DNA of 59,808 nt, the filler included. It is 7 parts of 7 records of this genome, joined end to end, with 100 filler letters (N's around TTAATTAATTAA, not from the genome) between each part and the next. Parts side by side here need not be neighbours in the genome. Positions count along the whole stretch, not along the records: positions 53,839 to 59,808 come from SRR31147125_16116; 6 more parts are not named here. The stretch is one strand, 5' to 3'. Shown piece after piece: positions 8,825-59,808 of this stretch; the stretch's first letter is position 1, and each line of letters begins with the position of its first letter. A model generated the notes under the pieces. It was not told where the DNA came from. It did no database searches and saw nothing but the letters and a program-made list of their open reading frames with translations. Position numbers and translations under genes: made by a program.

Positions 8825-8924
8825 NNNNNNNNNNNNNNNNNNNNNNNNNNNNNNNNNNNNNNNNNNNNTTAATTAATTAANNNNNNNNNNNNNNNNNNNN
8901 NNNNNNNNNNNNNNNNNNNNNNNN
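8825..8924. other. Artificial contig linker
   Basis: N44-TTAATTAATTAA-N44 (stops in all six frames). Confidence 0.99.
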
Positions 8925-9378
8925 TGTCCAGCTGACCGATTTTTCCGTGTTCTATTCGCAGGATTCTGAGGGCGCTGACGAAAGCCTGAAGAAAGGCAAA
9001 AGCAAGGTCATCGTTGACAAGGGTCAGGTTGTAAAGATCAATAAGGATAAGAGCGGTATCGTGAAACGCGAAGTCCTGACAAAGAAATGGACTGACTGGA
9101 TAGATTACTGGGCGGTCGATTTCGATTTTGAAAGCAAGCGTGAGATCGTCGAAGTCAAGAACCCGGATACCGGTGAGATGGAATCGGTATGGACCGGCGA
9201 CTATGTATTCGAAAATGAATGGCAATCGTTCAGGACGAAAAAAGACAGGAAACTTGATATGAAGACTGTCTTCAGAGAGTGTCTCCCCGGCAGGCGAAAA
9301 ATTGCAGTGAAGGTCGTTGACATATTCGGAAATGATACGATGAAAACTGTTGAAGTGACGATAGGAGGACGCAAGTAA
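8925..9378 (+). CDS. mod: C-terminal part of type III R-M methyltransferase (Mod), 5'-truncated
   Basis: WTDWIDYWAVDFDF, FENEWQSFR, KIAVKVVDIFGNDT C-terminal motifs; TAATG overlap with res. Confidence 0.85.
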
Positions 9379-12059
9379 TGGCTTTGCATCCTGATTTTCC
9401 GGAATCACCCCACGAGATACTTGACCCGGATGTAAGATGGTTCCCTGCAGATGAAGCTCTCCGGGAATCAAGCTATGAAAAGCTGCTTCCACCCCTTGTC
9501 CATGAACTCCGGAAAAAAGTGACCGAATGGCGCTACAAGGATTATGAGGGCGCTTCCGATACAAGCATCGCACTGCTCAATCACTGGTTCAAGACTGAAC
9601 ATCTTATCCCAAAATCTGACGGCACAGTTGCACCGTTCCAGTATTATTTCGGGCAGCGGGAAGCGGTCGAGACCGTAGTATATCTGTATGATGTCATAAA
9701 GGTCAAAGATAAGTATGATCTGCTCAGGTTTGATTCGTCCGGAGCTGTATCAGCAGGGATGTTTGATGAAACCTGGCGGCGATTCGTAATCAAGATGGCG
9801 ACAGGCACGGGGAAAACCAAGGTGATGAGCCTTATCCTTGCATGGTGCTTTTTCCATAAGCTGTATGAGCCTGATTCAGAGCTTGCCAGGAATTTTCTTG
9901 TGATTGCGCCGAACATAATTGTCCTTGACCGGATCAGGACCGATTTTGACGGGCTGAAGATATTTTTTGAAGATCCCGTCCTCCCTGAGAACGGTTACGA
10001 TGGACAGAACTGGAAAGATGATTTCCAGCTGACACTGCATATCCAGGATGAAGTCAGCATTACGAGAAAGACAGGCAACATTTTCCTGACAAATATCCAT
10101 CGCGTCTATTCAGGGAATGACAGTGAAGCGACAGCTGATGATGATGATACGATGGATTATTTCCTGGGTAAGCGTCCGACAGGGGCGACAACCGACTCAA
10201 AAGTTGACCTCGGCGATATCGTGAGAGACATCGATGAGCTTGTTGTCCTGAATGACGAAGCGCATCATATCCATGACAGCCGTCTTGCATGGTTCAAGTC
10301 AATCGAGGATATCCATAACAGGCTCAAACATAAGGATAAGTTCCTTTCCCTGCAGATAGATGTGACGGCAACGCCAAAGCATAACAACGGGGCAATCTTT
10401 GTCCAGACCATTTCCGATTACCCACTTGTTGAGGCGATTTCGCAGAATGTAGTCAAGCATCCGGTCCTGCCTGATTCTGCGAGCCGGGCAAAACTCAGCG
10501 AGAGGCAAAGCTCGAAATATACAGAGAAATATGCAGATTACCTGAACCTCGGGATTGAGGAATGGCGAAAAGCGTTCGATGAGCACGACAAGCTCGAAAA
10601 GAAAGCCATCCTTTTCGTGATGACCGATGATACCAAGAATTGCGATGACGTAGCCGAATACCTGGAAGCCACATACCCTGAACTTAAAGAATCCGTCCTC
10701 GTGATCCATACGAAAAACAACGGTGAAATCAGCGAAGCCAAATCTTCAAAAGCCAAGGAAGAGCTTGAAAAGCTGCGAAAACAGTCCAATGAAATTGATG
10801 GTTGGGACAGCCCGTTCAAGGCGATCGTATCGGTCCTTATGTTGAAAGAAGGATGGGACGTCAAGAACGTGACGACAATAGTGGGGCTTCGAGCGTATTC
10901 AGCGAAAAGCAATATCCTGCCTGAACAGACACTGGGGCGCGGTCTAAGGAAAATGTATCCCGGAAACGGCGTGGAGGAATATGTCAGCGTTGTCGGAACA
11001 GACGCTTTCATGGATTTCGTCGAATCGATCCAGTCCGAGGGGGTCGAGCTTGAACGGAAGGCTATGGGCGAAGGGACAAAACCGAAAACCCCGATCATTG
11101 TCGAGATCGATAATGAGAACACAAGCAAGGATATAGATGCGCTTGATATTGAGATACCTGTCCTGACACCAAGGGTTTACCGTGAATACAAGAACCTCTC
11201 CGAGCTTGATGTGACAAGTTTCGGTCATGAGAAGGTTGAATACAAGGAATTCACCGAAGAGGAGAAACGGGAGATAGTCTTCAAGGATATAACGACAGGG
11301 GAAATCAATCATACAACTTTCCTGGATTCCGCCGCTGTCACTGATTATAGATCTGTAATTGGATATTTCACGCAATTGATAATGAAGGATCTGAGGCTGG
11401 TCAGCGGGTATGACGTGCTCTACGAAAAAGTGAAATCCTTTATCCGGGATGAGCTGTTTGAAAAGACCGTGGATCTGGATGACCTCAACACCATCCGCAA
11501 CCTGTCTGAACTGAACGCCAGCAAGACCCTGATAGAGTCATTCAAGAAAGAAATCAATGCCCTGACAATCAGGGATAAGGGCGACTCCGAAATCAAGGAT
11601 TCTATCAAGCTGAGGAAAACCAGACCGTTCGTTGTCAAGGAACAAGGATACCTGATACCGAAAAAGAGCGTGTTCAACAAGATCATCGGGGATAGTCATC
11701 TTGAGCTCCAGTTCGCGGCATTTCTTGAAGAGTGCGATGATATTGTTTCCTATGTGAAAAATTACATGGCGGTGCATTTCAAGATCGATTACGTCAATGC
11801 CACCGGTGACATTTCCAACTATTATCCGGACTTCATCGTCAAGCTGAACGAAAAGGATACCTGCATTGTCGAGACCAAAGGGTTGGAGGATCTTGATGTT
11901 CCGCTGAAGATGGATCGCCTGAAACAGTGGTGCGAAGATATCAACAAGGCGCAATCCGATGTCGTGTATGACTATGTTTTCGTCGACCAGGAAAGCTTTG
12001 AGAAGTTCAAGCCGAAGAGCTTCAGCGAGCTGGTGAAGGGATTCACCGAGTACAAATAG
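9378..12059 (+). CDS. res: Type III restriction enzyme Res subunit (SF2 helicase + PD-(D/E)xK nuclease)
   Basis: MATGTGKT Walker A, NDEAHH, TATP, LKEGWDV, EQTLGRGLR, YYPDF...ETKG. Confidence 0.93.
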   Translation: MALHPDFPESPHEILDPDVRWFPADEALRESSYEKLLPPLVHELRKKVTEWRYKDYEGASDTSIALLNHWFKTEHLIPKSDGTVAPFQYYFGQREAVETVVYLYDVIKVKDKYDLLRFDSSGAVSAGMFDETWRRFVIKMATGTGKTKVMSLILAWCFFHKLYEPDSELARNFLVIAPNIIVLDRIRTDFDGLKIFFEDPVLPENGYDGQNWKDDFQLTLHIQDEVSITRKTGNIFLTNIHRVYSGNDSEATADDDDTMDYFLGKRPTGATTDSKVDLGDIVRDIDELVVLNDEAHHIHDSRLAWFKSIEDIHNRLKHKDKFLSLQIDVTATPKHNNGAIFVQTISDYPLVEAISQNVVKHPVLPDSASRAKLSERQSSKYTEKYADYLNLGIEEWRKAFDEHDKLEKKAILFVMTDDTKNCDDVAEYLEATYPELKESVLVIHTKNNGEISEAKSSKAKEELEKLRKQSNEIDGWDSPFKAIVSVLMLKEGWDVKNVTTIVGLRAYSAKSNILPEQTLGRGLRKMYPGNGVEEYVSVVGTDAFMDFVESIQSEGVELERKAMGEGTKPKTPIIVEIDNENTSKDIDALDIEIPVLTPRVYREYKNLSELDVTSFGHEKVEYKEFTEEEKREIVFKDITTGEINHTTFLDSAAVTDYRSVIGYFTQLIMKDLRLVSGYDVLYEKVKSFIRDELFEKTVDLDDLNTIRNLSELNASKTLIESFKKEINALTIRDKGDSEIKDSIKLRKTRPFVVKEQGYLIPKKSVFNKIIGDSHLELQFAAFLEECDDIVSYVKNYMAVHFKIDYVNATGDISNYYPDFIVKLNEKDTCIVETKGLEDLDVPLKMDRLKQWCEDINKAQSDVVYDYVFVDQESFEKFKPKSFSELVKGFTEYK

Positions 12060-14384: not shown

Positions 14385-15599
14385 ATGTCGCAAAATTTAT
14401 CTGTTGAACAGAGCTTTCAAAAATTAATAAGCAACCTGAATCCGACAGAGAAACAACGACAGCGAATCCAGACCACAAGAGCGACCATCGATTCTGTACT
14501 TGCAAATGAAGACCGGATATTCCTCAACACGCAGCAGCAGCCATCCTTTCTAACGGGTTCATACAGTAGAAACACCATCATCAGACCCATCGATGACATA
14601 GATCTCTATGTCAGAATCCATTACAGCAAGCATGCCAAAGATAAATCGCCACTATCTATCCTTCGGCTGATCGCCGCCTCAATTAGGAATAGATACCACA
14701 AGAACACAAGAGTTGATGTAGATTCTCCATGTGTGGTTGTCAGATTTCTGGACTACAAATTTGAAGTGGCTCCCGTTGTTGGTTATTCAGATGACTCTGA
14801 TCTGTATGATATTCCGGCACCTGGTTCCAAAACATGGATGCAGTGCTATCCTAACGTGCCGTCAAAGTGGTTATCTTCATGTAATCATATGAACAACGGG
14901 ATGTTCATCCCTATGATTAAAATTCTTAAGCAGTGGAACAGGACGCAGAAAATCGGCTTGAAATCATTCCATCTGGAGCTTCTGACTGAAAAAGTATTCA
15001 GCACAATCACCGAAATAAAATCATATCCACAGGGTGTTACCGATTGGATGTATTGCGTAAATGAATGGATTCATGAGAACGATTATCCGTTCGTTCCCGA
15101 ACCGGGACAGACATACAAGTATGTCGATGATTACCTATACAAAAATCGGCTTATACTCATACAGAAACGACGCAAGCTTGAAAAATCTTTGAAAAAAGCT
15201 GAAAGGGCTTGGAATTTCTATGTCAAAGGAAGAAATATCGCTGCAAAAAGGATCTATCGCAACCTGTTCGGTTCAATGTTTCCTGCACCTGAACCTTTAC
15301 CGGCAAAACAGGTGCTAACACCGCCAAAAACTGAACCCGCGCCCCCATTGAAGGATTTATTACCCCCACGGCAGCCGATGGAGCTATCTACTGGTTTGCG
15401 GACTTCAGATTATATAAACGCCCTCATGAATCCAAAACCAGCTCTTACCGGCAATGTGTTAGCTGATTTTTTAAGGCGAAATGCGTTGAGTGATCCCTTT
15501 TCCCCAGAACCAGACCCGCAAGATAAACTTTTGGCTGAGGCTCGAAAGAATGCGATCCTGGCCATGCTTTCAAAAACAGATGATCCATTTAAAAAGTGA
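14385..15599 (+). CDS. CD-NTase / SMODS nucleotidyltransferase (CBASS cyclase) with Pro-rich C-terminal extension
   Basis: FLTGSYSRNTIIRPIDDIDL (GS..DxD), FEVAP, IKILKQWN and LKSFHLEL cGAS/DncV-like motifs; directly upstream of a SLATT gene. Confidence 0.9.
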   Translation: MSQNLSVEQSFQKLISNLNPTEKQRQRIQTTRATIDSVLANEDRIFLNTQQQPSFLTGSYSRNTIIRPIDDIDLYVRIHYSKHAKDKSPLSILRLIAASIRNRYHKNTRVDVDSPCVVVRFLDYKFEVAPVVGYSDDSDLYDIPAPGSKTWMQCYPNVPSKWLSSCNHMNNGMFIPMIKILKQWNRTQKIGLKSFHLELLTEKVFSTITEIKSYPQGVTDWMYCVNEWIHENDYPFVPEPGQTYKYVDDYLYKNRLILIQKRRKLEKSLKKAERAWNFYVKGRNIAAKRIYRNLFGSMFPAPEPLPAKQVLTPPKTEPAPPLKDLLPPRQPMELSTGLRTSDYINALMNPKPALTGNVLADFLRRNALSDPFSPEPDPQDKLLAEARKNAILAMLSKTDDPFKK

Positions 15600-16302: not shown

Positions 16303-16402
16303 NNNNNNNNNNNNNNNNNNNNNNNNNNNNNNNNNNNNNNNNNNNNTTAATTAATTAANNNNNNNNNNNNNNNNNNNNNNNNNNNNNNNNNNNNNNNNNN
16401 NN
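16303..16402. other. Artificial contig linker
   Basis: N44-TTAATTAATTAA-N44. Confidence 0.99.
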
Positions 16403-21632: not shown

Positions 21633-21732
21633 NNNNNNNNNNNNNNNNNNNNNNNNNNNNNNNNNNNNNNNNNNNNTTAATTAATTAANNNNNNNNNNNN
21701 NNNNNNNNNNNNNNNNNNNNNNNNNNNNNNNN
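21633..21732. other. Artificial contig linker
   Basis: N44-TTAATTAATTAA-N44. Confidence 0.99.
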
Positions 21733-27404: not shown

Positions 27405-27504
27405 NNNNNNNNNNNNNNNNNNNNNNNNNNNNNNNNNNNNNNNNNNNNTTAATTAATTAANNNNNNNNNNNNNNNNNNNNNNNNNNNNNNNNNNNNNNNN
27501 NNNN
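27405..27504. other. Artificial contig linker
   Basis: N44-TTAATTAATTAA-N44. Confidence 0.99.
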
Positions 27505-38637: not shown

Positions 38638-38737
38638 NNNNNNNNNNNNNNNNNNNNNNNNNNNNNNNNNNNNNNNNNNNNTTAATTAATTAANNNNNNN
38701 NNNNNNNNNNNNNNNNNNNNNNNNNNNNNNNNNNNNN
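38638..38737. other. Artificial contig linker
   Basis: N44-TTAATTAATTAA-N44. Confidence 0.99.
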
Positions 38738-52052: not shown

Positions 52053-52162
52053 TCTACATTATTAAAGTGCTTTAGTAGTACTGAAGATGAAATAAGCAAT
52101 AAAATTTAAGTTGTTGAATTACAGGGTTAATGTAGTCCGTTTTGACTGCAAATGGAGAAAGT

Positions 52163-52830
52163 ATGCTTAAGAAAATGATGAAAATATTGATAGTTATTTT
52201 TGTTTCAACTGGATTTCTAACAATACAAAATAGTTACAGTCAAACGTTTTCTTCTGGTTTGGCATTGTTAGACAGTAAATGGACTGCAAATGGTTCTTTT
52301 CGTACGATTGTTGATAAACCTAAAAGATTCAGTTTGTCTGGTGTTGTTCAGTTTGATAAGCCTTATGATGGTGGAGAAGTAAAAAGTTTAATTATTGGGA
52401 GTGTGGGATATTCAGTCCTCCCTGCTGTAAATCTATTAGTTGGAACTTTTTATTCTTCATCAATAAAACTGAATCCGGCTATTTCTACTCAGTATGTATG
52501 GTCAAAAAATAAATTCAAAGGATTAGTTTATCCTATCTGGATTCTTCATGATCCAACTGTTCTTCTAACTTTTTTAGGTTTGAATATGCAAACGCAATTA
52601 ATTCTAAACTGGATTATTTCATAAGGTTTCAGCCATACATTGTTAGTGGATTTTGGAAACATCATTACACCAGGGCTGCTACTCGTGCTGGAATTAGAAT
52701 TAGAAGCTGGGAGATGGGTTTTGCAACGGATACTGATTTTGTAGGGAAAGAATTAGAGAGTACCAGTCGGTTTGGAATTTTTTTTCAAAAGAAGTTTAAA
52801 CGGAAATCGAAAAAGGAGATTTTAATATAA
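52163..52830 (+). CDS. Putative outer-membrane beta-barrel protein, frameshifted in a T-run near 52572
   Basis: Signal peptide; the shifted frame continues RFEYANAINSKLDYFIRFQ...RAGIRIRSWEMGF...RFGIFFQKKF with alternating beta-strand pattern. Confidence 0.55.
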
Positions 52831-53738: not shown

Positions 53739-53838
53739 NNNNNNNNNNNNNNNNNNNNNNNNNNNNNNNNNNNNNNNNNNNNTTAATTAATTAANNNNNN
53801 NNNNNNNNNNNNNNNNNNNNNNNNNNNNNNNNNNNNNN
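53739..53838. other. Artificial contig linker
   Basis: N44-TTAATTAATTAA-N44. Confidence 0.99.
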
Positions 53839-54265
53839 TTTGACTTAGATCTAAAAAATATTCTATATGATTTTTAAGTCAAAAATATTTAAGAATACTC
53901 TAAATAAAAACTCACTATCAAATTTATTTTTGACTTAACATTATTAATCTCAAAATCAAGTAAACTATTCATAATTATATCATTTAGAAATTTTTTTTCA
54001 ATCATTTTGAATATCTTTTCAGCATACTTATATCGCCTTTTAACTTACGATAAAACATTATAATGCTCATATTTTTTAATAACTTATCTCTTTTATTCTA
54101 GTTTTAGCTAAATAATCATTGAATCCCTATGAATGTTCATTAGGAACAATACCATGCCAACTTCTTGCAATCATAATTCTCTATTCGGTGTATTCATTTA
54201 TACATCTATTGTCTCCATTTTTTTAGTTATTACGGATATTTACTAATTTTAACCGATTTTAAAAT

Positions 54266-54327
54266 TAGTAACAAAACCTTGTAAGAGATGTAATACATAC
54301 GAAGTCCAGGTTGGCATGCTGTTAAAC
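54266..54327 (-). repeat. attC-like site downstream of the YqfO-like gene
   Basis: Minus strand GTTTAAC (overlapping the stop codon) ... GTTACTA; internal AACCT/AGGTT and ATGTA/TACAT pairing. Confidence 0.5.
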
Positions 54328-54656
54328 TAATTCAAGTTATAAATGTGGTTATGAAGTTGTATAACATTCATCAACACTTCTTCATAAGGATGGATTTCCT
54401 TAACTTTCTCAATTACAGATTCGATAAATTCTTCTGCACAACGTATCTCTAGTTTATACTCTGTTCCATAATTTACTTTGTTTTTTTCACCTGTGACAGG
54501 CTGCGCGTTATCATTTGGACACCAACTGCCTTTGATTGGATAGTATGACGCAACATGTGTATAATCCCCAACTTGACAGGCTCCTAACTTTGTTACTTCT
54601 TCAACTATTGAATCTATAAATTCTTCTGGTAAGTATATTTCTATTTTATATTGCAC
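54327..54656 (-). CDS. YqfO/NIF3-insert (PII/CutA-like) small protein
   Basis: YKIEIYLP, GACQVGDY, EYKLEI, HPYEE motif; AGGAGG SD before GTG 54656. Confidence 0.85.
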   Translation of the reverse strand: MQYKIEIYLPEEFIDSIVEEVTKLGACQVGDYTHVASYYPIKGSWCPNDNAQPVTGEKNKVNYGTEYKLEIRCAEEFIESVIEKVKEIHPYEEVLMNVIQLHNHIYNLN

Positions 54657-54727
54657 TGATTCCTCCTGTATGTACTGTTTAGAACTCACATTCCCCCGTC
54701 AAACTGTCATGTGAAGATCATGTTATT

Positions 54728-55417
54728 TTACTGAAACAAGATCTTTTCTATTTCTCCAAAATCTTCAATATAATAATCTGCAAATTCTTTTAGTATGCGA
54801 TGTTGTTCCTTATCCCTTTTTAAGAAGTGCCCTGCTAATATTGTTTTCATTCCTATTTTCTTTGCACCTTTCAACTCATCAGAGCCACCATCTCCAACAA
54901 AAATACAATTTTCTGGATTAGTACTCATTTTCTCTAATGCAATTTTATAAATTTCACTTTTGGGTTTTAAATATCCTGCTTCACATGAAAATATTGTTTC
55001 ATCAAATAAATTGCTTAGAGGAGATTCATTCCAATACATTATATCAATCACATCTGCATTGCTAATCAAACATATCTTTTTTCCTTTTTTCTTTATATCT
55101 AAAAGAACACTAAGAATTATAGGATCAATATTAATTAACGACTTTTTAAATCGTGCTTCTCTTAATTTTAATATCTCTAATTTTTCACTCTCACCAACAC
55201 TCACATTTAATTTATTAATAATATCTTGAATTATTTTTTTAGGATTTTTTTCTTGTCCACTTGCTCTTTTTATATAAAGCTCATTATCTTCTGCGTATTT
55301 TTCCCATTCGTCTTTTGTTATTTTTAATACATCATATTCATTTCTTAAATCACTATATTTTGGCACTACCAATGTAAAAAATAAATCAAAAAATACAACA
55401 TTTATATCCTTATTCAT
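54728..55417 (-). CDS. HAD family hydrolase
   Basis: FFDLFFTL motif I, ISN, KP, FVGDGGSDELKGA. Confidence 0.9.
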   Translation of the reverse strand: MNKDINVVFFDLFFTLVVPKYSDLRNEYDVLKITKDEWEKYAEDNELYIKRASGQEKNPKKIIQDIINKLNVSVGESEKLEILKLREARFKKSLINIDPIILSVLLDIKKKGKKICLISNADVIDIMYWNESPLSNLFDETIFSCEAGYLKPKSEIYKIALEKMSTNPENCIFVGDGGSDELKGAKKIGMKTILAGHFLKRDKEQHRILKEFADYYIEDFGEIEKILFQ

Positions 55418-55447: not shown

Positions 55448-55538
55448 GAGTAACTATATAGTGTAGTCACTATTACCATAAAACATTCAAAAAGTATGAC
55501 TTTACCATGGTGAGTGGCGGGACACAGATGTGTTACAT
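55448..55538 (-). repeat. attC-like site between GNAT and HAD genes
   Basis: Minus ATGTAAC ... GTTACTC; plus-strand stem GTGT/ACAC, GTCACT/AGTGGC, TACCAT/ATGGTG with G-T pairs and bulges. Confidence 0.6.
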
Positions 55539-55592
55539 GTATGACTAGGCGATGTTTTGTACACAGCTATTCGGTCTAAATCTAACTTTGTA

Positions 55593-56006
55593 TCAAAGTT
55601 CCTTTTTCAAAACTATGTCTTCACCATTTGCATTCAATACAGACCAACCATTATTGACATACAACTCCGGTACATTGGTTTGAGCATAAAGAAATTTGTA
55701 TCCATATTCTTTTGATATTTTCTCTGCAGAATTTATAAGTTTAGAGCCTACGCCAAGACCTCTCATAGATGAATGAACATAAAGTGCGTTAATCCAAAGC
55801 GTTGCGTCATCTTTTTCAGGATTTTGATATGCCGTAAAAGCCAAACCACCTATTAATTTTTCGTTATTAATCGCTAAGATTGGACTAGGTAACCTAATGC
55901 CTAGCTTAATCTCCGTAAATTCTCCGTACTCTCCCCATATTTCTTCATACCAGTTTCGCAGTTGAATCAAATGAGGAGAAGTAAAATTAGAATTTGTAAT
56001 AATCAT
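55593..56006 (-). CDS. GNAT family N-acetyltransferase
   Basis: WINALYVHSSMRGLGVGSKLI motif A, LYVNNGW; AAGGAGG SD before ATG 56006. Confidence 0.88.
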   Translation of the reverse strand: MIITNSNFTSPHLIQLRNWYEEIWGEYGEFTEIKLGIRLPSPILAINNEKLIGGLAFTAYQNPEKDDATLWINALYVHSSMRGLGVGSKLINSAEKISKEYGYKFLYAQTNVPELYVNNGWSVLNANGEDIVLKKEL

Positions 56007-56211: not shown

Positions 56212-56991
56212 CTATAACCTCAACGAAACCAATCTTCTCGCTTTTTCCACTGCTACCTTCAAATATTCTTCAGCAGATAGTTCAGCGTAATCCCACTTCA
56301 TTGCTTCCAAAGATATATTACCTGTATAGCCTGTATTAGCAATACCCTTCATAACGGAAGCCCAATCGATGCTCCCATCAAAAGGTAGTCCGTGCATTCC
56401 ATGGCTTCCATTATCATCATGTAAATGTAGTGCCATTAATTTCGATCCAAATTCTGAAAGCATATCAAAATCAGGGTAATAGTGATAGTGATGACCTGAG
56501 TCATAACAGAATCCAACTCTATCTGAATCTATCTCGCTTAACACATATCTAATGTTCGATAGATTACGTAGATTCTCTAAAGCTATATTGATTTCCTTCT
56601 GTTCTGCTAATTCTGCAATCTTTTTAAAGCGTTTTAATCCAAATTCCGTGCATAAATGATCTTCGTTTGGTAAGTGTATTACCATAGTGGGAATTTCAAA
56701 TGATTGACAATCTCGTATACATTGCAGATAACAGTCATACATTTCTCTGCCAGCCAAACTATCATCCCAAAGAGTATTCGCATACTCTACTGGTGTGTGA
56801 ATATTCTCAATTAATAATCCTGATTCCCGTGCCATTCGGGGGGAATTAAGATAATCATCAACTCCAAACTTATCTCGTCCAAATTCATTACTCCACCACA
56901 TCAATACACCATCAAAACCGACTTCCTTCATCAATCTATAACGTTCCAGCATTGGTGTATCTCCATCAAACCAATCCCACATTGATATCAT
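56212..56991 (-). CDS. Sugar phosphate isomerase/epimerase (AP endonuclease 2 TIM barrel)
   Basis: IALENL, FCYDSGH, LHLHDDNG, HGLPFDGSIDW, SLE. Confidence 0.9.
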   Translation of the reverse strand: MISMWDWFDGDTPMLERYRLMKEVGFDGVLMWWSNEFGRDKFGVDDYLNSPRMARESGLLIENIHTPVEYANTLWDDSLAGREMYDCYLQCIRDCQSFEIPTMVIHLPNEDHLCTEFGLKRFKKIAELAEQKEINIALENLRNLSNIRYVLSEIDSDRVGFCYDSGHHYHYYPDFDMLSEFGSKLMALHLHDDNGSHGMHGLPFDGSIDWASVMKGIANTGYTGNISLEAMKWDYAELSAEEYLKVAVEKARRLVSLRL

Positions 56992-57046: not shown

Positions 57047-57094
57047 CTCTAACTATGTAACGAAAGGCGTATTTTGGAAACAGACGTGTTAGCT
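57047..57094 (-). repeat. Internally deleted attC-like site
   Basis: Minus AGCTAAC ... GTTAGAG; both ends (TAACTAT..., ...ACAGAYGTGTTA) match the 55448-55538 site. Confidence 0.55.
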
Positions 57095-57125
57095 AAAGTT
57101 CATTTTCTTTCTTAAAAACCAAGTT

Positions 57126-57962
57126 CTAGTCATACTCTAGCGTCATACCGACACCAACTTCTTGTATATCAACAGCTCGAGACAATTCTATTTTCGATTT
57201 CAAATCTGTACAATGGCATGCGTGTACTTTTTTGATGTTCAAACGTCGGAAGTAGTCTACTGTTTTTTCTAGTATATCACGTTCAGGATTTAGTAGATGG
57301 AAACCTCCGATTATATCTACTATTCGTTCCTCTCCGCAAACCTTTTTTGCATAATCAACAATATTACAAATACCTGCATGTGAACAGCCAGTAATAATGA
57401 CTAAGCCTTCTGATGATTTGTACACCAAAGCCGAATCATCAAGCACATAGTCATTTTTCTCTACTCCGTTTTCTTCATAAGTGCCTATTGCAACTTTTCC
57501 TTCAAAATCGTTTTTTCGCTCAATTTCACCTAGAAATACGATGTTATCTGTTAACCAATGTGGTTTCTTCGTTAAGTTCGTTTCATAGTGTTTTTCTAGT
57601 TTGGCTTTGCTTATGATGCTACCTATATCTTCCTTGCCAATACACTTATACTCTAGTGCATCTGGATGAGATATAAACTTAGGTTGTTTATACTCTAAGC
57701 CTTCAATAATTGCTTCTGTTTGTAACCTCATTAAGGGAACAAGTCCCCATGTATGATCGATATGTCCATGCGATATTACTATGTAGTCAATATTGTATAA
57801 ATTCAACTGCTTTTTCATAGCATTCCTAATGAAAATGTCGGAATATCCTGCATCAAATAATATATTTGTATTTTCATCTTCGATGTAAAATGATACACTG
57901 GGTTCTGCTTGGAAATATCTATCGATTAATGTGTTGTTATCTACTAGTACATGTATTTTCAT
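57126..57962 (-). CDS. MBL-fold metallo-hydrolase (7,8-dihydropterin-6-yl-methyl...synthase-like group)
   Basis: ILFDAG, SHGHIDH, TGCSHAGI, IGGFHL, CHCT. Confidence 0.9.
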   Translation of the reverse strand: MKIHVLVDNNTLIDRYFQAEPSVSFYIEDENTNILFDAGYSDIFIRNAMKKQLNLYNIDYIVISHGHIDHTWGLVPLMRLQTEAIIEGLEYKQPKFISHPDALEYKCIGKEDIGSIISKAKLEKHYETNLTKKPHWLTDNIVFLGEIERKNDFEGKVAIGTYEENGVEKNDYVLDDSALVYKSSEGLVIITGCSHAGICNIVDYAKKVCGEERIVDIIGGFHLLNPERDILEKTVDYFRRLNIKKVHACHCTDLKSKIELSRAVDIQEVGVGMTLEYD

Positions 57963-58025
57963 ATTTCCATACCTTTCTAATTCGATTATTTTTACTTTCA
58001 TCACAAAAACTTGAAAATGAATTTT

Positions 58026-58101
58026 AGCTAACGTTTAGCTTATTTCTGACGCAACAATACACCCACTGTTATTCTGTTGTGTTGGAAATACACTGTTAGG
58101 C
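58026..58101 (-). repeat. attC-like site (best preserved)
   Basis: Minus GCCTAAC (RYYYAAC) 12 nt after the stop ... GTTAGCT; plus-strand 16-bp stem TATTTCTGACGCAACA/TGTTGTGTTGGAAATA with three G-T pairs. Confidence 0.75.
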
Positions 58102-58113
58102 GGAGTTCTCCGT

Positions 58114-58809
58114 TTACTTAATCATTTCTTTTACTATGCTCTCTACATGGATTTCTACTGTGTTCAAAAATTTTATATCTATTTCATCTTCCTTCTTTAA
58201 CAACAGTGGTAGTTCAGTACACCCAAGAATTAAGCCATCAATATGATCTTCTATTCTCATTCTTTCTATGATTTTTAAGAATTCATTTTTTGTTTCCCTT
58301 TTGATAACACCGATCTCTAATTCAGAGACTATCTTCTCATGAATATAATCTCGTTCTATACTTTTGGGAATAATTGGTTCTATGTTATGTTCTAAAATTT
58401 CTTTTTTGAAAAATTCTTCTTCCATTGTGAATTTTGTTCCGATTAAACCAATACGTTTTAGACCCAATTCTTTAGCTTTCTTCGATGTTGCGACTAATAT
58501 GCTGATTAATGGAACAGGTGATAATTCATTGAGGTGATTAAAAACAATATGTGGAGTGTTTGCACCTATTGCACAAATTTCTGCTCCCGCTTGATATCCT
58601 TCTTTTATAGCAGATAGCAAATAATCAGTTACTTTTTCATACTCCTTTTTTCCAACCATTTCGAGCAACTTATGTACATTCAAAGAATTAATTAGGAATT
58701 CTGGTATTTCCTCACTACTCATCATATCTTGATAACTTTTTATAATCAATTGATAATAATCTAAAGTTGCTTCTGGACCTAGTCCACCAATTAAACAGAA
58801 TTTTTTCAT
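58114..58809 (-). CDS. Aspartate/glutamate racemase family protein
   Basis: IGGLGPEATLDYY, GANTPH, LIGTKFTM, LGCTELP. Confidence 0.92.
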   Translation of the reverse strand: MKKFCLIGGLGPEATLDYYQLIIKSYQDMMSSEEIPEFLINSLNVHKLLEMVGKKEYEKVTDYLLSAIKEGYQAGAEICAIGANTPHIVFNHLNELSPVPLISILVATSKKAKELGLKRIGLIGTKFTMEEEFFKKEILEHNIEPIIPKSIERDYIHEKIVSELEIGVIKRETKNEFLKIIERMRIEDHIDGLILGCTELPLLLKKEDEIDIKFLNTVEIHVESIVKEMIK

Positions 58810-58857: not shown

Positions 58858-58918
58858 ACCTAACGTTGAATGTCATAAGTGAAGAGTGCTTTTTATTTCA
58901 TCAGTAGAAGTGTTAAGT
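58858..58918 (-). repeat. attC-like site
   Basis: Minus ACTTAAC (perfect RYYYAAC containing the TAA stop of the upstream gene) ... GTTAGGT (perfect GTTRRRY); weak internal pairing. Confidence 0.65.
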
Positions 58919-59602
58919 GATATCCAAATACACTTCGATAAGACCTCTTGCTAATGATTTTGACGAATCAATGTACTCGATTTCTTCCCTTGATTCAAGT
59001 ACTACGTTTAAGTCAGTACATGCAACAATAATTTTCTGGACACCTTTTTCTATTGCCCGTGAAATTAATTGATTCCAAATCATTTTTGTTTTTTCAATTT
59101 CTTCATTGTTCTTTATACGAAGAATTACTTGATTTATTGTTTCCTGCCATTTTTCTTCAAATATATATTCACATTTCTTTAATTCAACACCTTTTTGATA
59201 CAATCCTGACTTCATTGTCATTTCAGTAGCGAATATACTAACCTTTGCGCCCTCCTCAATATCCTTCACAGTTTCATTCACGATGTTTAATACAGGTAAT
59301 TCTATATTCTTTGTAATATAATCAAAATGAGCATGGGCACTATTACATGGAATTCCAATTACATCAACGTCACATTTTTGAAGCTTCTCAATGCCTTCTT
59401 TTATAGATGTTTTTAATTGTTCTTCATTGGTTTCTCTATCAATATAGAAAGGAGTTGGTAAGGAATAAACTATTATATGAGGATAATCAATGTCATATTT
59501 TGCACCATACTGTTCTTGACATTGATCAAGCAGTAATTCTAGAAATGGACTTGTTGATCTCGGACCCATTCCAGCTAAAATTCCTATTGTTGTTTTTTTC
59601 AT
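58913..59602 (-). CDS. Aspartate/glutamate racemase family protein
   Basis: IGILAGMGPRST, IPCNSAH, VACTDL; AGGAG SD before ATG 59602. Confidence 0.92.
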   Translation of the reverse strand: MKKTTIGILAGMGPRSTSPFLELLLDQCQEQYGAKYDIDYPHIIVYSLPTPFYIDRETNEEQLKTSIKEGIEKLQKCDVDVIGIPCNSAHAHFDYITKNIELPVLNIVNETVKDIEEGAKVSIFATEMTMKSGLYQKGVELKKCEYIFEEKWQETINQVILRIKNNEEIEKTKMIWNQLISRAIEKGVQKIIVACTDLNVVLESREEIEYIDSSKSLARGLIEVYLDIT

Positions 59603-59610
59603 GTTATTTC

Positions 59611-59669
59611 TCCTAACTTCGTTCAATAGTTGCCGACGCCATCCTTTTGATTAAAACGGCATGGGCGTC
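59611..59669 (-). repeat. Partial attC-like site upstream of the last racemase
   Basis: Minus GTTAGGA core directly before the SD; adjacent bulged hairpin GACGCC-AT-CC-TTTT/AAAA-c-GG-c-AT-g-GGCGTC; far core not recognisable. Confidence 0.45.
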
Positions 59670-59808
59670 AGCTCACAATTTATTTCTTCAAGTATTGCTG
59701 TGTATATGGACAAACAACAATACACTTCCCACATAGGGTGATTTCTTTATTTATATTCTCTGCTGAAAGCCTTCTTGCTTCTCTTCTACATTCAATGGGA
59801 TTAAAAAA

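What the first reader, a model, noticed from the sequence alone, without database searches (positions are those of the whole stretch)
58026..58101. Hairpin whose mismatches are G-T pairs only on the bottom strand
Seen: on the plus strand (bottom strand relative to the genes) TATTTCTGACGCAACA pairs with TGTTGTGTTGGAAATA over 16 bp, with all three non-Watson-Crick positions being G-T. On the mRNA strand these are C-A mismatches, so it is a poor RNA terminator. The 55448-55538 site shows the same bias. Established: IntI recombines the folded bottom strand of attC as ssDNA. Inference: selection acts on a bottom-strand ssDNA hairpin. The core-to-stem spacers (8 nt and 4 nt) and lack of obvious canonical extrahelical bases suggest a distinct site architecture and possibly a distinct recombinase.
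Basis: partly seen in the sequence, partly recalled or inferred. Interest (0 to 1): 0.75.

Follow-up and report, generated by a model that had tools for sequence, protein, structure and literature searches.

The report
Likely integron-type cassette recombination hairpin
The hairpin is real and is most likely the folded recombination site at the end of a mobile gene cassette; its one-sided G-T pairs are a feature already published for such sites, so this is a modest find with an unusual site layout rather than a new principle.

Summary
The hairpin exists as described. It has a 16-bp stem (58041-58056 / 58075-58090) with three G·T pairs on the + strand only. As DNA the + strand folds at -11.7 kcal/mol (z -2.8) and the - strand at -8.7 (z -1.5).

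The hairpin lies in a 6-kb contig of co-oriented, unrelated small genes. GTTAG core-like motifs sit in 5 of 7 spacers (0 of 5000 shuffles match this). One gene module (MBL) recurs in a metagenome contig, and the homology ends exactly at the GTT of the next site. My best reading (about 0.55) is an integron-type attC site of the racemase cassette, recombined as the folded bottom (+) strand.

The G:T strand bias is already published for attC sites (Nivina 2016, PMC5027507: 1.24 vs 0.39 G:T, 2.12 kcal/mol).

The layout is non-canonical, with spacers of 4 and 8 nt and no bulged bases. Proxy attC covariance models built from real class-1 sites do not recognise the site. No recombinase is visible, because 3.3 kb upstream lies outside the window. 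With only three wobbles, the bias at this site alone has a chance probability of 0.25.

The parts
58026..58101 (-). Whole attC-like site. The top strand is the coding (-) strand and the folding bottom strand is the window + strand.
58095..58101 (-). R''-like inverse core GCCTAAC (fits RYYYAAC 7 of 7), 12 nt after the racemase stop codon
   Evidence: consensus as quoted in PMC5027507
58091..58094 (.). 4-nt unpaired spacer on the R''/L'' arm
58075..58090 (.). Stem arm on the R'' side, carrying G58084, T58083 and T58080 of the three G·T pairs
58057..58074 (.). 18-nt terminal loop (variable terminal structure), partly self-paired in the fold
58041..58056 (.). Stem arm on the R' side
58033..58040 (.). 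8-nt spacer on the R'/L' arm. Together with 58026-58032 it forms a competing mini-palindrome, AGCTAA-CGT-TTAGCT.
58026..58032 (-). R'-like core GTTAGCT (fits GTTRRRY 6 of 7); inferred crossover G|TT; start of the MBL module
58013..58032 (+). 20-nt inverted repeat, right copy (5' end of the MBL module)
   Evidence: 19 of 20 match, E 0.001 in the window
57088..57107 (-). 20-nt inverted repeat, left copy. It ends in the R''-like AGCTAAC of the site after the MBL gene.
57047..57094 (-). Site 3: AGCTAAC-N34-GTTAGAG after the MBL gene. It folds weakly. Homology with L010 stops at its GTT (57051).
58858..58918 (-). Site 1: ACTTAAC-N47-GTTAGGT after the first racemase gene. R'' overlaps the stop codon. 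It scores 14.7 bits with proxy attC model R2 (E 0.024 in the 6-kb contig) but shows no stable fold.
59611..59617 (-). GTTAGGA core-like motif 9 nt before the first racemase start codon. It overlaps the ribosome-binding site.
59631..59680 (-). Bulged hairpin after the partial upstream gene. It is more stable on the - strand, the opposite bias to the focal hairpin.
55580..55586 (-). GTTAGAT core-like motif at the end of a 7-bp mini-palindrome just after the GNAT stop codon
58114..58809 (-). Asp/Glu racemase-family gene, the cassette that the focal site would belong to
57126..57962 (-). MBL-fold hydrolase gene. This module recurs in metagenome contig L010.
54327..59808 (-). Array of eight co-oriented genes: a partial Fe-S-like C-terminus, two racemases, MBL, a TIM-barrel gene, GNAT, HAD and a small ORF.

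Best explanation
The element is an integron-type (attC-like) recombination site that closes a gene cassette carrying an Asp/Glu-racemase-family gene. It lies in a small array of promoter-less, co-oriented cassettes on a low-GC contig whose genes look Firmicutes-like.

Inferred mechanism, by analogy with integrons: when the DNA is single-stranded, the bottom strand (window + strand) folds into the hairpin. A tyrosine recombinase cuts in the 5' box of that strand (AA|C, which is G|TT on the coding strand). Cassettes are excised or inserted at that point.

The three G·T wobbles stabilise only the bottom-strand hairpin by about 3 kcal/mol. On the coding strand they are C·A mismatches, so the top strand and the mRNA fold worse. 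This helps the recombinase choose the strand and keeps cassettes in the expressed orientation.

Shown here: the hairpin, its asymmetry, the junction motifs, and one module boundary at GTT. Inferred: single-strand folding in vivo, the recombinase, and selection on the wobbles.
For: (1) Motifs. GCCTAAC and GTTAGCT bracket the hairpin on the coding strand, and the site is 76 nt long, within the published 57-141 range.

(2) Array. There are eight co-oriented genes of unrelated families. GTTAG on the coding strand occurs 5 times in 884 nt of spacers, in 5 of 7 spacers. Mononucleotide shuffles give a mean of 0.84; at least 5 copies occurred in 7 of 5000 shuffles, and 5 spacers hit in 0 of 5000. The 4469 coding nt hold only 2 copies. 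CTAAC precedes GTTAG in three consecutive junctions. One R'' overlaps a stop codon and one R' overlaps a ribosome-binding site, as in known cassettes.

(3) Modularity. Metagenome contig L010 (91% nt identity) matches window 58027 to 57051 and then diverges exactly after the GTT of the next site.

(4) The 5' end of the MBL module is the inverse complement of its own downstream R'' region (19 of 20 nt). A cassette that was once a circle closed by one hairpin would look like this.

(5) Strand asymmetry matches published attC behaviour. The bottom strand is 3.0 kcal/mol more stable with 3 against 0 G·T. The computed circular-junction forms of two cassettes favour the bottom strand by 2.3 and 2.4 kcal/mol. 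The published mean is 2.12 kcal/mol with 1.24 against 0.39 G:T (PMC5027507). The one IR mismatch in the window, and the second one in L010, are also A·C on the coding strand, hence G·T on the bottom strand.

(6) Site 1 scores 14.7 bits (E 0.024 in the contig) in the expected orientation with a proxy attC model that found held-out real attC sites.
Against: No integrase or attI is visible. None of the 40 ORFs that I scanned with Pfam matches an integrase family, and shorter ORFs were not scanned. No genome is held for the window.

The focal site lacks extrahelical bases, and its spacers are 4 and 8 nt instead of 5-6. In the in-situ minimum-energy fold, R' pairs with its own spacer and not with R''.

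Proxy attC models built from class-1 sites do not align the focal site as a whole. The best partial match is 6.4 bits.

The neighbouring sites 1 and 3 do not fold above chance (z +1.0 to +1.4 and +0.2 to +0.3). The hairpin at 59631-59680 has the opposite strand bias.

Counting every wobble I saw in candidate pairings gives 5 favouring the + strand and 2 favouring the - strand, which is not significant.

Integrons are reported as extremely rare in Firmicutes (IntegronFinder 2.0 preprint, passages read), and the genes here have Bacillales-like relatives. Only one module boundary could be mapped, and L010 does not reach the hairpin, so no covariation test was possible.
Confidence: 0.55

Rival explanations
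1. This is an ordinary intergenic hairpin inside an operon, for example an mRNA 3'-end protector, a processing site or a weak attenuator between the racemase and MBL genes. The G·T orientation and the core-like motifs are coincidental.
For: Three wobbles on one strand has a chance probability of 0.25. Stems of similar quality occur elsewhere in the window, even inside a coding region (56771-56807). The neighbouring 'sites' do not fold. The proxy attC models do not recognise the hairpin. The genes look like those of a phylum in which integrons are reported as extremely rare.
Against: On the mRNA strand the hairpin is the weaker version (RNA -17.0, z -1.55), and no U tract follows it. Rfam finds nothing, even at E up to 1. 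This reading does not explain GTTAG in 5 of 7 spacers (0 of 5000 shuffles). It also does not explain the end of L010 homology exactly at GTT or the 20-nt inverted repeat ending at AAC|GTT.
Confidence: 0.2
2. This is a cassette or module system that is not a true integron. One option is sites used by a Xer-like or other tyrosine recombinase without the IntI-specific domain. Another is that the MBL gene sits in a small element bounded by 20-bp terminal inverted repeats and moved in trans by a transposase, with the hairpin lying just outside it.
For: The architecture is non-canonical, with no extrahelical bases and 4/8-nt spacers, and the class-1-derived attC models fail on it. A 19-of-20 inverted repeat flanks the MBL gene. 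Pairing that extends 13 bp beyond the 7-bp R box is not seen in the real attC sites I extracted. Earlier notes of this scan report integron-like arrays beside Xer-like recombinases in other genomes; these are leads only.
Against: The core motifs are exactly the integron consensus (GCCTAAC, GTTAGGT, GTTAGAT). Homology with L010 runs 37 nt past the inverted repeat to the GTT of the next site, which does not fit an element that ends at its inverted repeats. I saw no target-site duplication next to the repeats. No transposase or recombinase is in view.
Confidence: 0.17
3. This is a terminator or structured element of an antisense (+ strand) transcript.
For: The + strand RNA fold is strong (-26.4 kcal/mol, z -3.32). 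A second small hairpin, CGGAG..CTCCG followed by TTTACTT, lies just downstream on the + strand.
Against: No T tract directly follows the 16-bp stem. The terminator scan reports nothing here. No + strand gene ends nearby. There is no Rfam match.
Confidence: 0.03

Closest known systems
Integron attC sites (59-base elements) of mobile class-1 integrons, e.g. the aadA1 site of plasmid R100 and the other sites extracted
   Same: The outer RYYYAAC / GTTRRRY boxes are shared, and so is the imperfect hairpin between them. The position is right after a cassette ORF, the length is in range, and the module boundary is at G|TT. The bottom strand is more stable, with G:T pairs on that strand only (PMC5027507).
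   Different: Real sites have 5- and 6-nt unpaired spacers and two bulged bases 6 bp apart on the L'' arm, as seen in alignment A1. Here the spacers are 4 and 8 nt and the 16-bp stem has no bulge. Real sites score 20-85 bits with the proxy models, and the focal site scores under 7 bits. GC content is 40% against 50-70%. No IntI or attI is seen.
CALIN (clusters of attC sites lacking an integron integrase; Cury et al. 2016, PMC4889954, passages read)
   Same: It is a short array of co-oriented cassettes with attC-like junctions and no integrase within reach. A few CALINs are reported in Firmicutes.
   Different: A CALIN is defined by at least 2 attC hits of the IntegronFinder model within 4 kb. 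I could not run that model because it is in a supplement. My proxy gives one marginal hit (site 1) and misses the focal site.
Integron-like cassette arrays beside Xer-like recombinases, as noted by earlier agents of this scan (e1-2376784, e1-2499879; unchecked AI notes)
   Same: Both have cassette arrays with hairpin sites whose wobbles are G·T on one strand, a non-canonical site layout, and no IntI-specific domain reported.
   Different: Those arrays are reported from Flavobacteriaceae. Here each gene has a strong Shine-Dalgarno sequence and Bacillales-like relatives. No sequence similarity to earlier windows was found.
Mobile insertion cassettes bounded by IS-derived inverted repeats in the Bacillus cereus group (recalled, not checked in any call)
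   Same: A single passenger gene is flanked by roughly 20-bp inverted repeats in a Bacillales-like context.
   Different: Homology with L010 continues 37 nt beyond the repeat. No target duplication was seen, and the repeat ends coincide with integron core motifs.

Membership tests
Integron attC site | Inverse core RYYYAAC (R'') and core GTTRRRY (R') at the two ends | tested here: met
   GCCTAAC fits 7 of 7 and GTTAGCT fits 6 of 7 on the coding strand. The consensus is as quoted in PMC5027507.
Integron attC site | R'' and R' pair to form the R box in the folded bottom strand | tested here: inconclusive
   Five Watson-Crick pairs plus one G·T are possible. In the in-situ minimum-energy fold, R' instead pairs with its own 8-nt spacer. 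In the computed circular-junction form of the cassette, a 6-bp R box does form.
Integron attC site | Unpaired central spacer of about 5-6 nt on each arm | tested here: not met
   The spacers are 4 nt and 8 nt. The real sites in alignment A1 have 5 and 6 nt, and the paper says the length is usually five to six.
Integron attC site | Two or three extrahelical bases on the L'' arm of the bottom strand (G at position 16, T at 23/24, 6 bp apart) | tested here: not met
   The 16-bp stem is uninterrupted. Positions 18, 19 and 22 from the 3' end are G·T wobbles, not bulges.
Integron attC site | Length 57-141 nt | tested here: met
   76 nt; range from PMC5027507.
Integron attC site | Bottom strand folds better than the top strand and carries more G:T mispairs | tested here: met
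   -11.6 against -8.6 kcal/mol, with 3 against 0 G·T. The published means are 2.12 kcal/mol and 1.24 against 0.39 G:T.
Integron attC site | Recognised by an attC covariance model | tested here: not met
   Proxy models R1 (8 seeds) and R2 (16 rows) were built from class-1 sites. The focal site is not aligned as a whole, and its best partial match is 6.4 bits. R2 found the held-out arr-3 and dfrA1 sites at 23-28 bits. The IntegronFinder model itself was not run.
Integron cassette array / CALIN | At least 2 attC sites within 4 kb, one after each cassette ORF | tested here: inconclusive
   GTTAG is present in 5 of 7 spacers. Only site 1 reaches a marginal model score (14.7 bits, E 0.024 in the contig, which is roughly 0.2-0.4 window-wide). 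Sites 1 and 3 do not fold.
Integron cassette array / CALIN | Cassettes are independent modules with boundaries at G|TT of the core site | tested here: met
   The MBL module in L010 matches window 58027 to 57051, and the sequence is unrelated after GTT. This is one boundary in one other contig.
Complete integron | An intI gene (tyrosine recombinase with the IntI-specific insertion) and attI next to the array | not testable with these tools
   No genome is held. The source contig runs 3276 nt beyond the window end, and I could not read that part.
Intrinsic transcription terminator | GC-rich stem directly followed by a U tract on the transcribed strand | tested here: not met
   There is no T tract after the stem on either strand, and the scan does not list it.
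Element bounded by terminal inverted repeats (MITE-like) | Inverted repeats at the very ends, a target-site duplication, and homology that stops at the repeats | tested here: not met
   The inverted repeat is present. However, homology with L010 runs 37 nt beyond it, and I saw no flanking duplication.

The most novel reading that the evidence does not exclude
A Firmicutes-like, low-GC organism keeps a working gene-cassette array whose recombination sites lack bulged bases. Strand choice would instead be encoded by one-sided G·T wobbles in a continuous stem plus a long (8-nt) spacer on the R' arm. The sites would be read by a divergent or non-IntI tyrosine recombinase encoded in the unseen upstream 3.3 kb.
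Probability: 0.15. Interest if true: 0.65.

Novelty: new variant of a known kind. Interest (0 to 1): 0.35.

Why it matters
If the array is a genuine integron-type platform, it would add a rare case of cassette capture in a lineage whose genes look like those of Bacillales, where integrons are reported as nearly absent. It would also offer a natural attC-like site without extrahelical bases. Such a site could be used to test how much strand choice depends on thermodynamic asymmetry (G:T wobbles) and how much on bulged bases. The general principle, bottom-strand folding favoured by G:T pairs, is already in print, so the finding does not open a new question by itself.

Tried and rejected
- Rfam found no match, either at gathering thresholds over the whole window or at E up to 1 around the site.
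- There are no tRNA genes in the window.
- The terminator scan reports nothing at the site.
- Own-genome search for IntI could not be run because no genome is held.
- The genome-contig scan with the racemase found only distant relatives (51% at best), none with the hairpin.
- Plasmid blastn of the contig matched only the MBL and racemase coding parts, at 65-71% identity. The Priestia and Bacillus contexts are unrelated.
- The metagenome scan with the MBL protein gave 14 loci, of which only L010 shares the flanks.
- A viral-contig scan for the 20-nt repeat found 0 matches.
- For sequencing runs, one holder is listed, which may be the source of this DNA. No RNA holder is listed.
- The two joints in the laid contigs (55393>57800 and 56111>58799) have sides under 30 nt and do not fall at core motifs, so I ignored them.
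- The look-up of earlier findings returned nothing for this place or this sequence.
- I tried reading the three wobble positions (18, 19 and 22 from the 3' end) as stand-ins for the canonical bulges. The positions do not line up convincingly, so I dropped the idea.
- I considered that the - strand is the recombined strand, since its spacer asymmetry looked canonical at first. I rejected this for two reasons. Real sites also have the longer spacer next to R' on the top strand, and the L010 boundary lies at the 3' box of the coding strand.
- The IntegronFinder attC model and the INTEGRALL site lists are in supplements that I could not open. This is why I built proxy models.

Full report
WHAT IS THERE

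The window is not one molecule. It is seven contigs joined by spacers of N44 + TTAATTAATTAA + N44. The finding lies in the last contig (53839-59808). This contig has 31-35% GC, and all of its genes are on the - strand.

- Stem arms at 58041-58056 and 58075-58090 form 16 uninterrupted pairs.
- Three pairs are G·T on the + strand: 58047·58084, 58048·58083 and 58051·58080.
- The loop is 18 nt.
- AGCTAAC lies 8 nt before the stem and GTTAGGC lies 4 nt after it.

Fold energies:

| Stretch, molecule | + strand | - strand |
|---|---|---|
| 58020-58110, DNA | -11.7 kcal/mol, z -2.80, 1 of 200 shuffles as good | -8.7, z -1.46, 15 of 200 |
| 58020-58110, RNA | -26.4, z -3.32 | -17.0, z -1.55 |
| Stem-loop alone (58041-58090), DNA | -8.1 | -4.6 |

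No T tract follows the stem on either strand, and the terminator scan lists nothing there. Rfam gives no match, even at E up to 1.

HOW UNUSUAL IT IS

It is only moderately unusual. Uninterrupted stems of at least 14 pairs (Watson-Crick plus G·T) occur at 7 places on the + strand and 2 on the - strand of the window. One of them is a 16-bp stem with four G·T inside a coding region (56771-56807). Twenty block shuffles gave 0-7 such rows. Three transition-type mismatches all falling on the same strand has a chance probability of 0.25.

As DNA it folds at -8.1 (z 0.03) on + and -7.8 (z -0.39) on -, with 1 against 0 G·T. A third hairpin in the array, 59631-59680, is more stable on the - strand (-11.1 against -8.7), which is the opposite bias.

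CONTEXT: A CASSETTE-LIKE ARRAY

The contig carries eight co-oriented genes of unrelated families:

| Coordinates | Gene |
|---|---|
| 59680-59808 | partial C-terminus with a Cys-rich motif |
| 58913-59602 | Asp/Glu-racemase family |
| 58114-58809 | Asp/Glu-racemase family |
| 57126-57962 | MBL-fold hydrolase |
| 56212-56991 | xylose-isomerase-like TIM barrel |
| 55593-56006 | GNAT acetyltransferase |
| 54728-55417 | HAD hydrolase |
| 54327-54689 | small ORF |

Read on the coding strand, the focal site is GCCTAAC-4 nt-stem-loop-stem-8 nt-GTTAGCT. These end motifs are the integron inverse core (RYYYAAC) and core (GTTRRRY).

The same core recurs at the other junctions:
- GTTAGGA at 59617, overlapping the ribosome-binding site of the first racemase.
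- ACTTAAC...GTTAGGT at 58918-58858, with R'' overlapping the stop codon.
- AGCTAAC...GTTAGAG at 57094-57047.
- GTTAGAT at 55586.

GTTAG on the coding strand occurs 5 times in the 884 nt of spacers, in 5 of 7 spacers. Mononucleotide shuffles of the spacers give a mean of 0.84. At least 5 copies occurred in 7 of 5000 shuffles, and five spacers hit in 0 of 5000. The 4469 coding nt hold only 2 copies.

MODULARITY

The metagenome scan with the MBL protein returned 14 loci. Only one of them, the 1056-nt contig L010, shares non-coding flanks with the window.
- L010 aligns at 91% to window 58027 down to 57051.
- It starts, at its contig end, 5 nt inside the R' of the focal site.
- It loses all similarity directly after the GTT of the next site. 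The window continues AGAGACTC..., whereas L010 continues TTGAATTG....
- The two closest full-length relatives (L007 and L008, 81% aa) have the gene in unrelated surroundings without these motifs.

So the MBL gene plus its downstream site behaves as a module whose 3' boundary is G|TT on the coding strand. That is the integron rule, and it fixes the polarity: the coding (-) strand is the top strand and the window + strand is the bottom strand.

In addition, the first 20 nt of the MBL module (58013-58032) are the inverse complement of the 20 nt that end in its own downstream R'' (57088-57107). The match is 19 of 20, with E 0.001 in the window. The single mismatch, and a second one in L010, are A·C on the coding strand and therefore G·T on the bottom strand.

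STRAND ASYMMETRY IS A KNOWN ATTC PROPERTY

Nivina et al. 2016 (PMC5027507; I read passages) analysed 263 attC sites. They report that the bottom strand folds on average 2.12 kcal/mol better. [quoted passage not shown] They interpret this as favouring bottom-strand folding and recombination.

The focal site fits this pattern, with 3 against 0 G·T and a 3.0 kcal/mol difference. The computed circular-junction forms favour the bottom strand by 2.4 kcal/mol for the MBL cassette and 2.3 kcal/mol for the racemase cassette. In the racemase form a 6-bp R box also pairs.

Counted honestly over every candidate pairing I examined, 5 wobbles favour the + strand: three in the stem and two in the inverted repeat across the window and L010. 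Two favour the - strand: one in the 59631-59680 hairpin and one in the chimeric R box of site 1. By itself this is not significant.

MEMBERSHIP TESTS

The same paper gives the canonical layout: spacers of usually 5-6 nt per arm, and two or three extrahelical bases on the L'' arm (G at position 16, T at 23/24, 6 bp apart).

To test membership I extracted real attC sites from class-1 integrons on public plasmids: R100 and twelve other records. Alignment A1 of eight of them shows this layout: 7-nt boxes, spacers of 5 and 6 nt, and two bulges 6 bp apart. I built two proxy covariance models, R1 from 8 seeds and R2 from 16 rows.

Controls:
- R2 finds held-out real sites: arr-3 at 28.3 and 23.4 bits, and dfrA1 at 23.3 bits.
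- R2 gives 0 hits in 26 unrelated loci totalling 151 kb, with default filters.

Results in the last contig, with filters off:
- Site 1 scores 14.7 bits in the expected orientation. E is 0.024 for the contig. This is marginal, because R1 gave an unrelated 13.6-bit match elsewhere in the window.
- Site 3 scores 5.8 bits.
- The focal site is not aligned as a whole. Only its mini-palindrome, 58026-58040, scores 6.4 bits.

The focal site has spacers of 4 and 8 nt and no bulge. In the in-situ fold its R' pairs with its own spacer (AGCTAA-CGT-TTAGCT) instead of with R''. Sites 1 and 3 do not fold above chance.

The features met are the boxes, the length, the boundary rule and the strand asymmetry. 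The features not met are the spacer length, the extrahelical bases and model recognition. For that reason I describe the site as working like an attC, but I do not file it as a canonical member. The real IntegronFinder model is in a supplement that I could not open.

RECOMBINASE AND HOST

None of the 40 ORFs that I scanned with Pfam matches an integrase family; I did not scan the shorter ORFs. No genome is held for the window. The laid contigs show that the source contig continues 3276 nt beyond 59808, on the upstream side of the array. I could not read that part.

The contig's genes have their best relatives in Bacillales:
- Planococcus, 51% aa for the racemase.
- Priestia, Bacillus and Peribacillus plasmids, 65-69% nt for the MBL gene.

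Each gene is preceded by a strong Shine-Dalgarno sequence. Other contigs of the window carry type-IX-secretion sorting domains, so the bin may be mixed.

Integrons are reported as extremely rare in Firmicutes: one complete integron and a few CALINs (IntegronFinder 2.0 preprint, 10.1101/2022.02.28.482270, passages read). This lowers the prior for a classical integron. It raises the interest somewhat if the array proves real.

VERDICT

- Best explanation (about 0.55): an integron-type cassette recombination site, folded and cut on the window + strand, whose G·T wobbles make the bottom-strand hairpin the more stable one.
- Rival (0.2): an ordinary operon hairpin with coincidental motifs.
- Rival (0.17): a cassette system with a non-IntI recombinase, or an element bounded by inverted repeats.
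- Rival (0.03): an antisense terminator.

The non-canonical layout is the only part that might be new, and it rests on a single site with no homologues and no recombinase in view.

Noticed in passing
window 8825-8924, 16303-16402, 21633-21732, 27405-27504, 38638-38737, 53739-53838: The window is seven contigs joined by N44 + TTAATTAATTAA + N44 spacers. GC content ranges from 31% to 50% between contigs. T9SS sorting domains occur in contigs 5-6, while the last contig has Shine-Dalgarno-rich, Bacillales-like genes. The bin may therefore mix organisms.
   Followed up: partly
window 53839-54037: The end of the last contig is a multi-copy repeat. Summed contig depth is 246 against about 28 elsewhere, with many loose ends. 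A perfect 14-bp inverted repeat lies at 53874-53887 / 53925-53938. It may be the end of an IS or a MITE.
   Followed up: no
window 57088-57107 and 58013-58032: A 20-nt inverted repeat (19 of 20) flanks the MBL gene and ends exactly at the AAC|GTT core motifs. Pairing beyond the 7-bp R box is not seen in the real attC sites that I extracted.
   Followed up: partly
L010 1-1056: The MBL gene in this metagenome contig appears frameshifted. Only a 151-aa ORF (447-902) remains open. This is either a pseudogene or an assembly error.
   Followed up: no
L014 1-123: In this metagenome contig the first 113 or so codons of the MBL homologue are replaced by unrelated, structured-looking sequence. This suggests an insertion into the gene.
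   Followed up: no
window 52215-52273: TTCTAACAATAC...GCATTGTTAGAC lies inside or near the ORF 52142-52624 on another contig. It scores about 13 bits with proxy attC model R1 on both strands. It is probably chance.
   Followed up: no
window 56771-56807: A 16-bp uninterrupted stem with four G·T pairs on the + strand lies inside the TIM-barrel gene. It shows that such one-sided wobble hairpins arise without any site function.
   Followed up: no
window 9378-12059 and 14385-15599: A ResIII-type helicase/restriction subunit and a SMODS (CBASS-type nucleotidyltransferase) gene lie on two of the short contigs. They may be fragments of a defence island.
   Followed up: no
L021/L023 (G001:C604:1746-2546): A 362-aa ORF in the Cloacimonadota MAG behind L004 matches the integron-integrase model in two pieces (134.8 + 101.4 bits; model positions 7-179 and 237-315). 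That is below the 265-bit cut-off, and the match lacks the middle region. R2 found no attC in these loci.
   Followed up: partly
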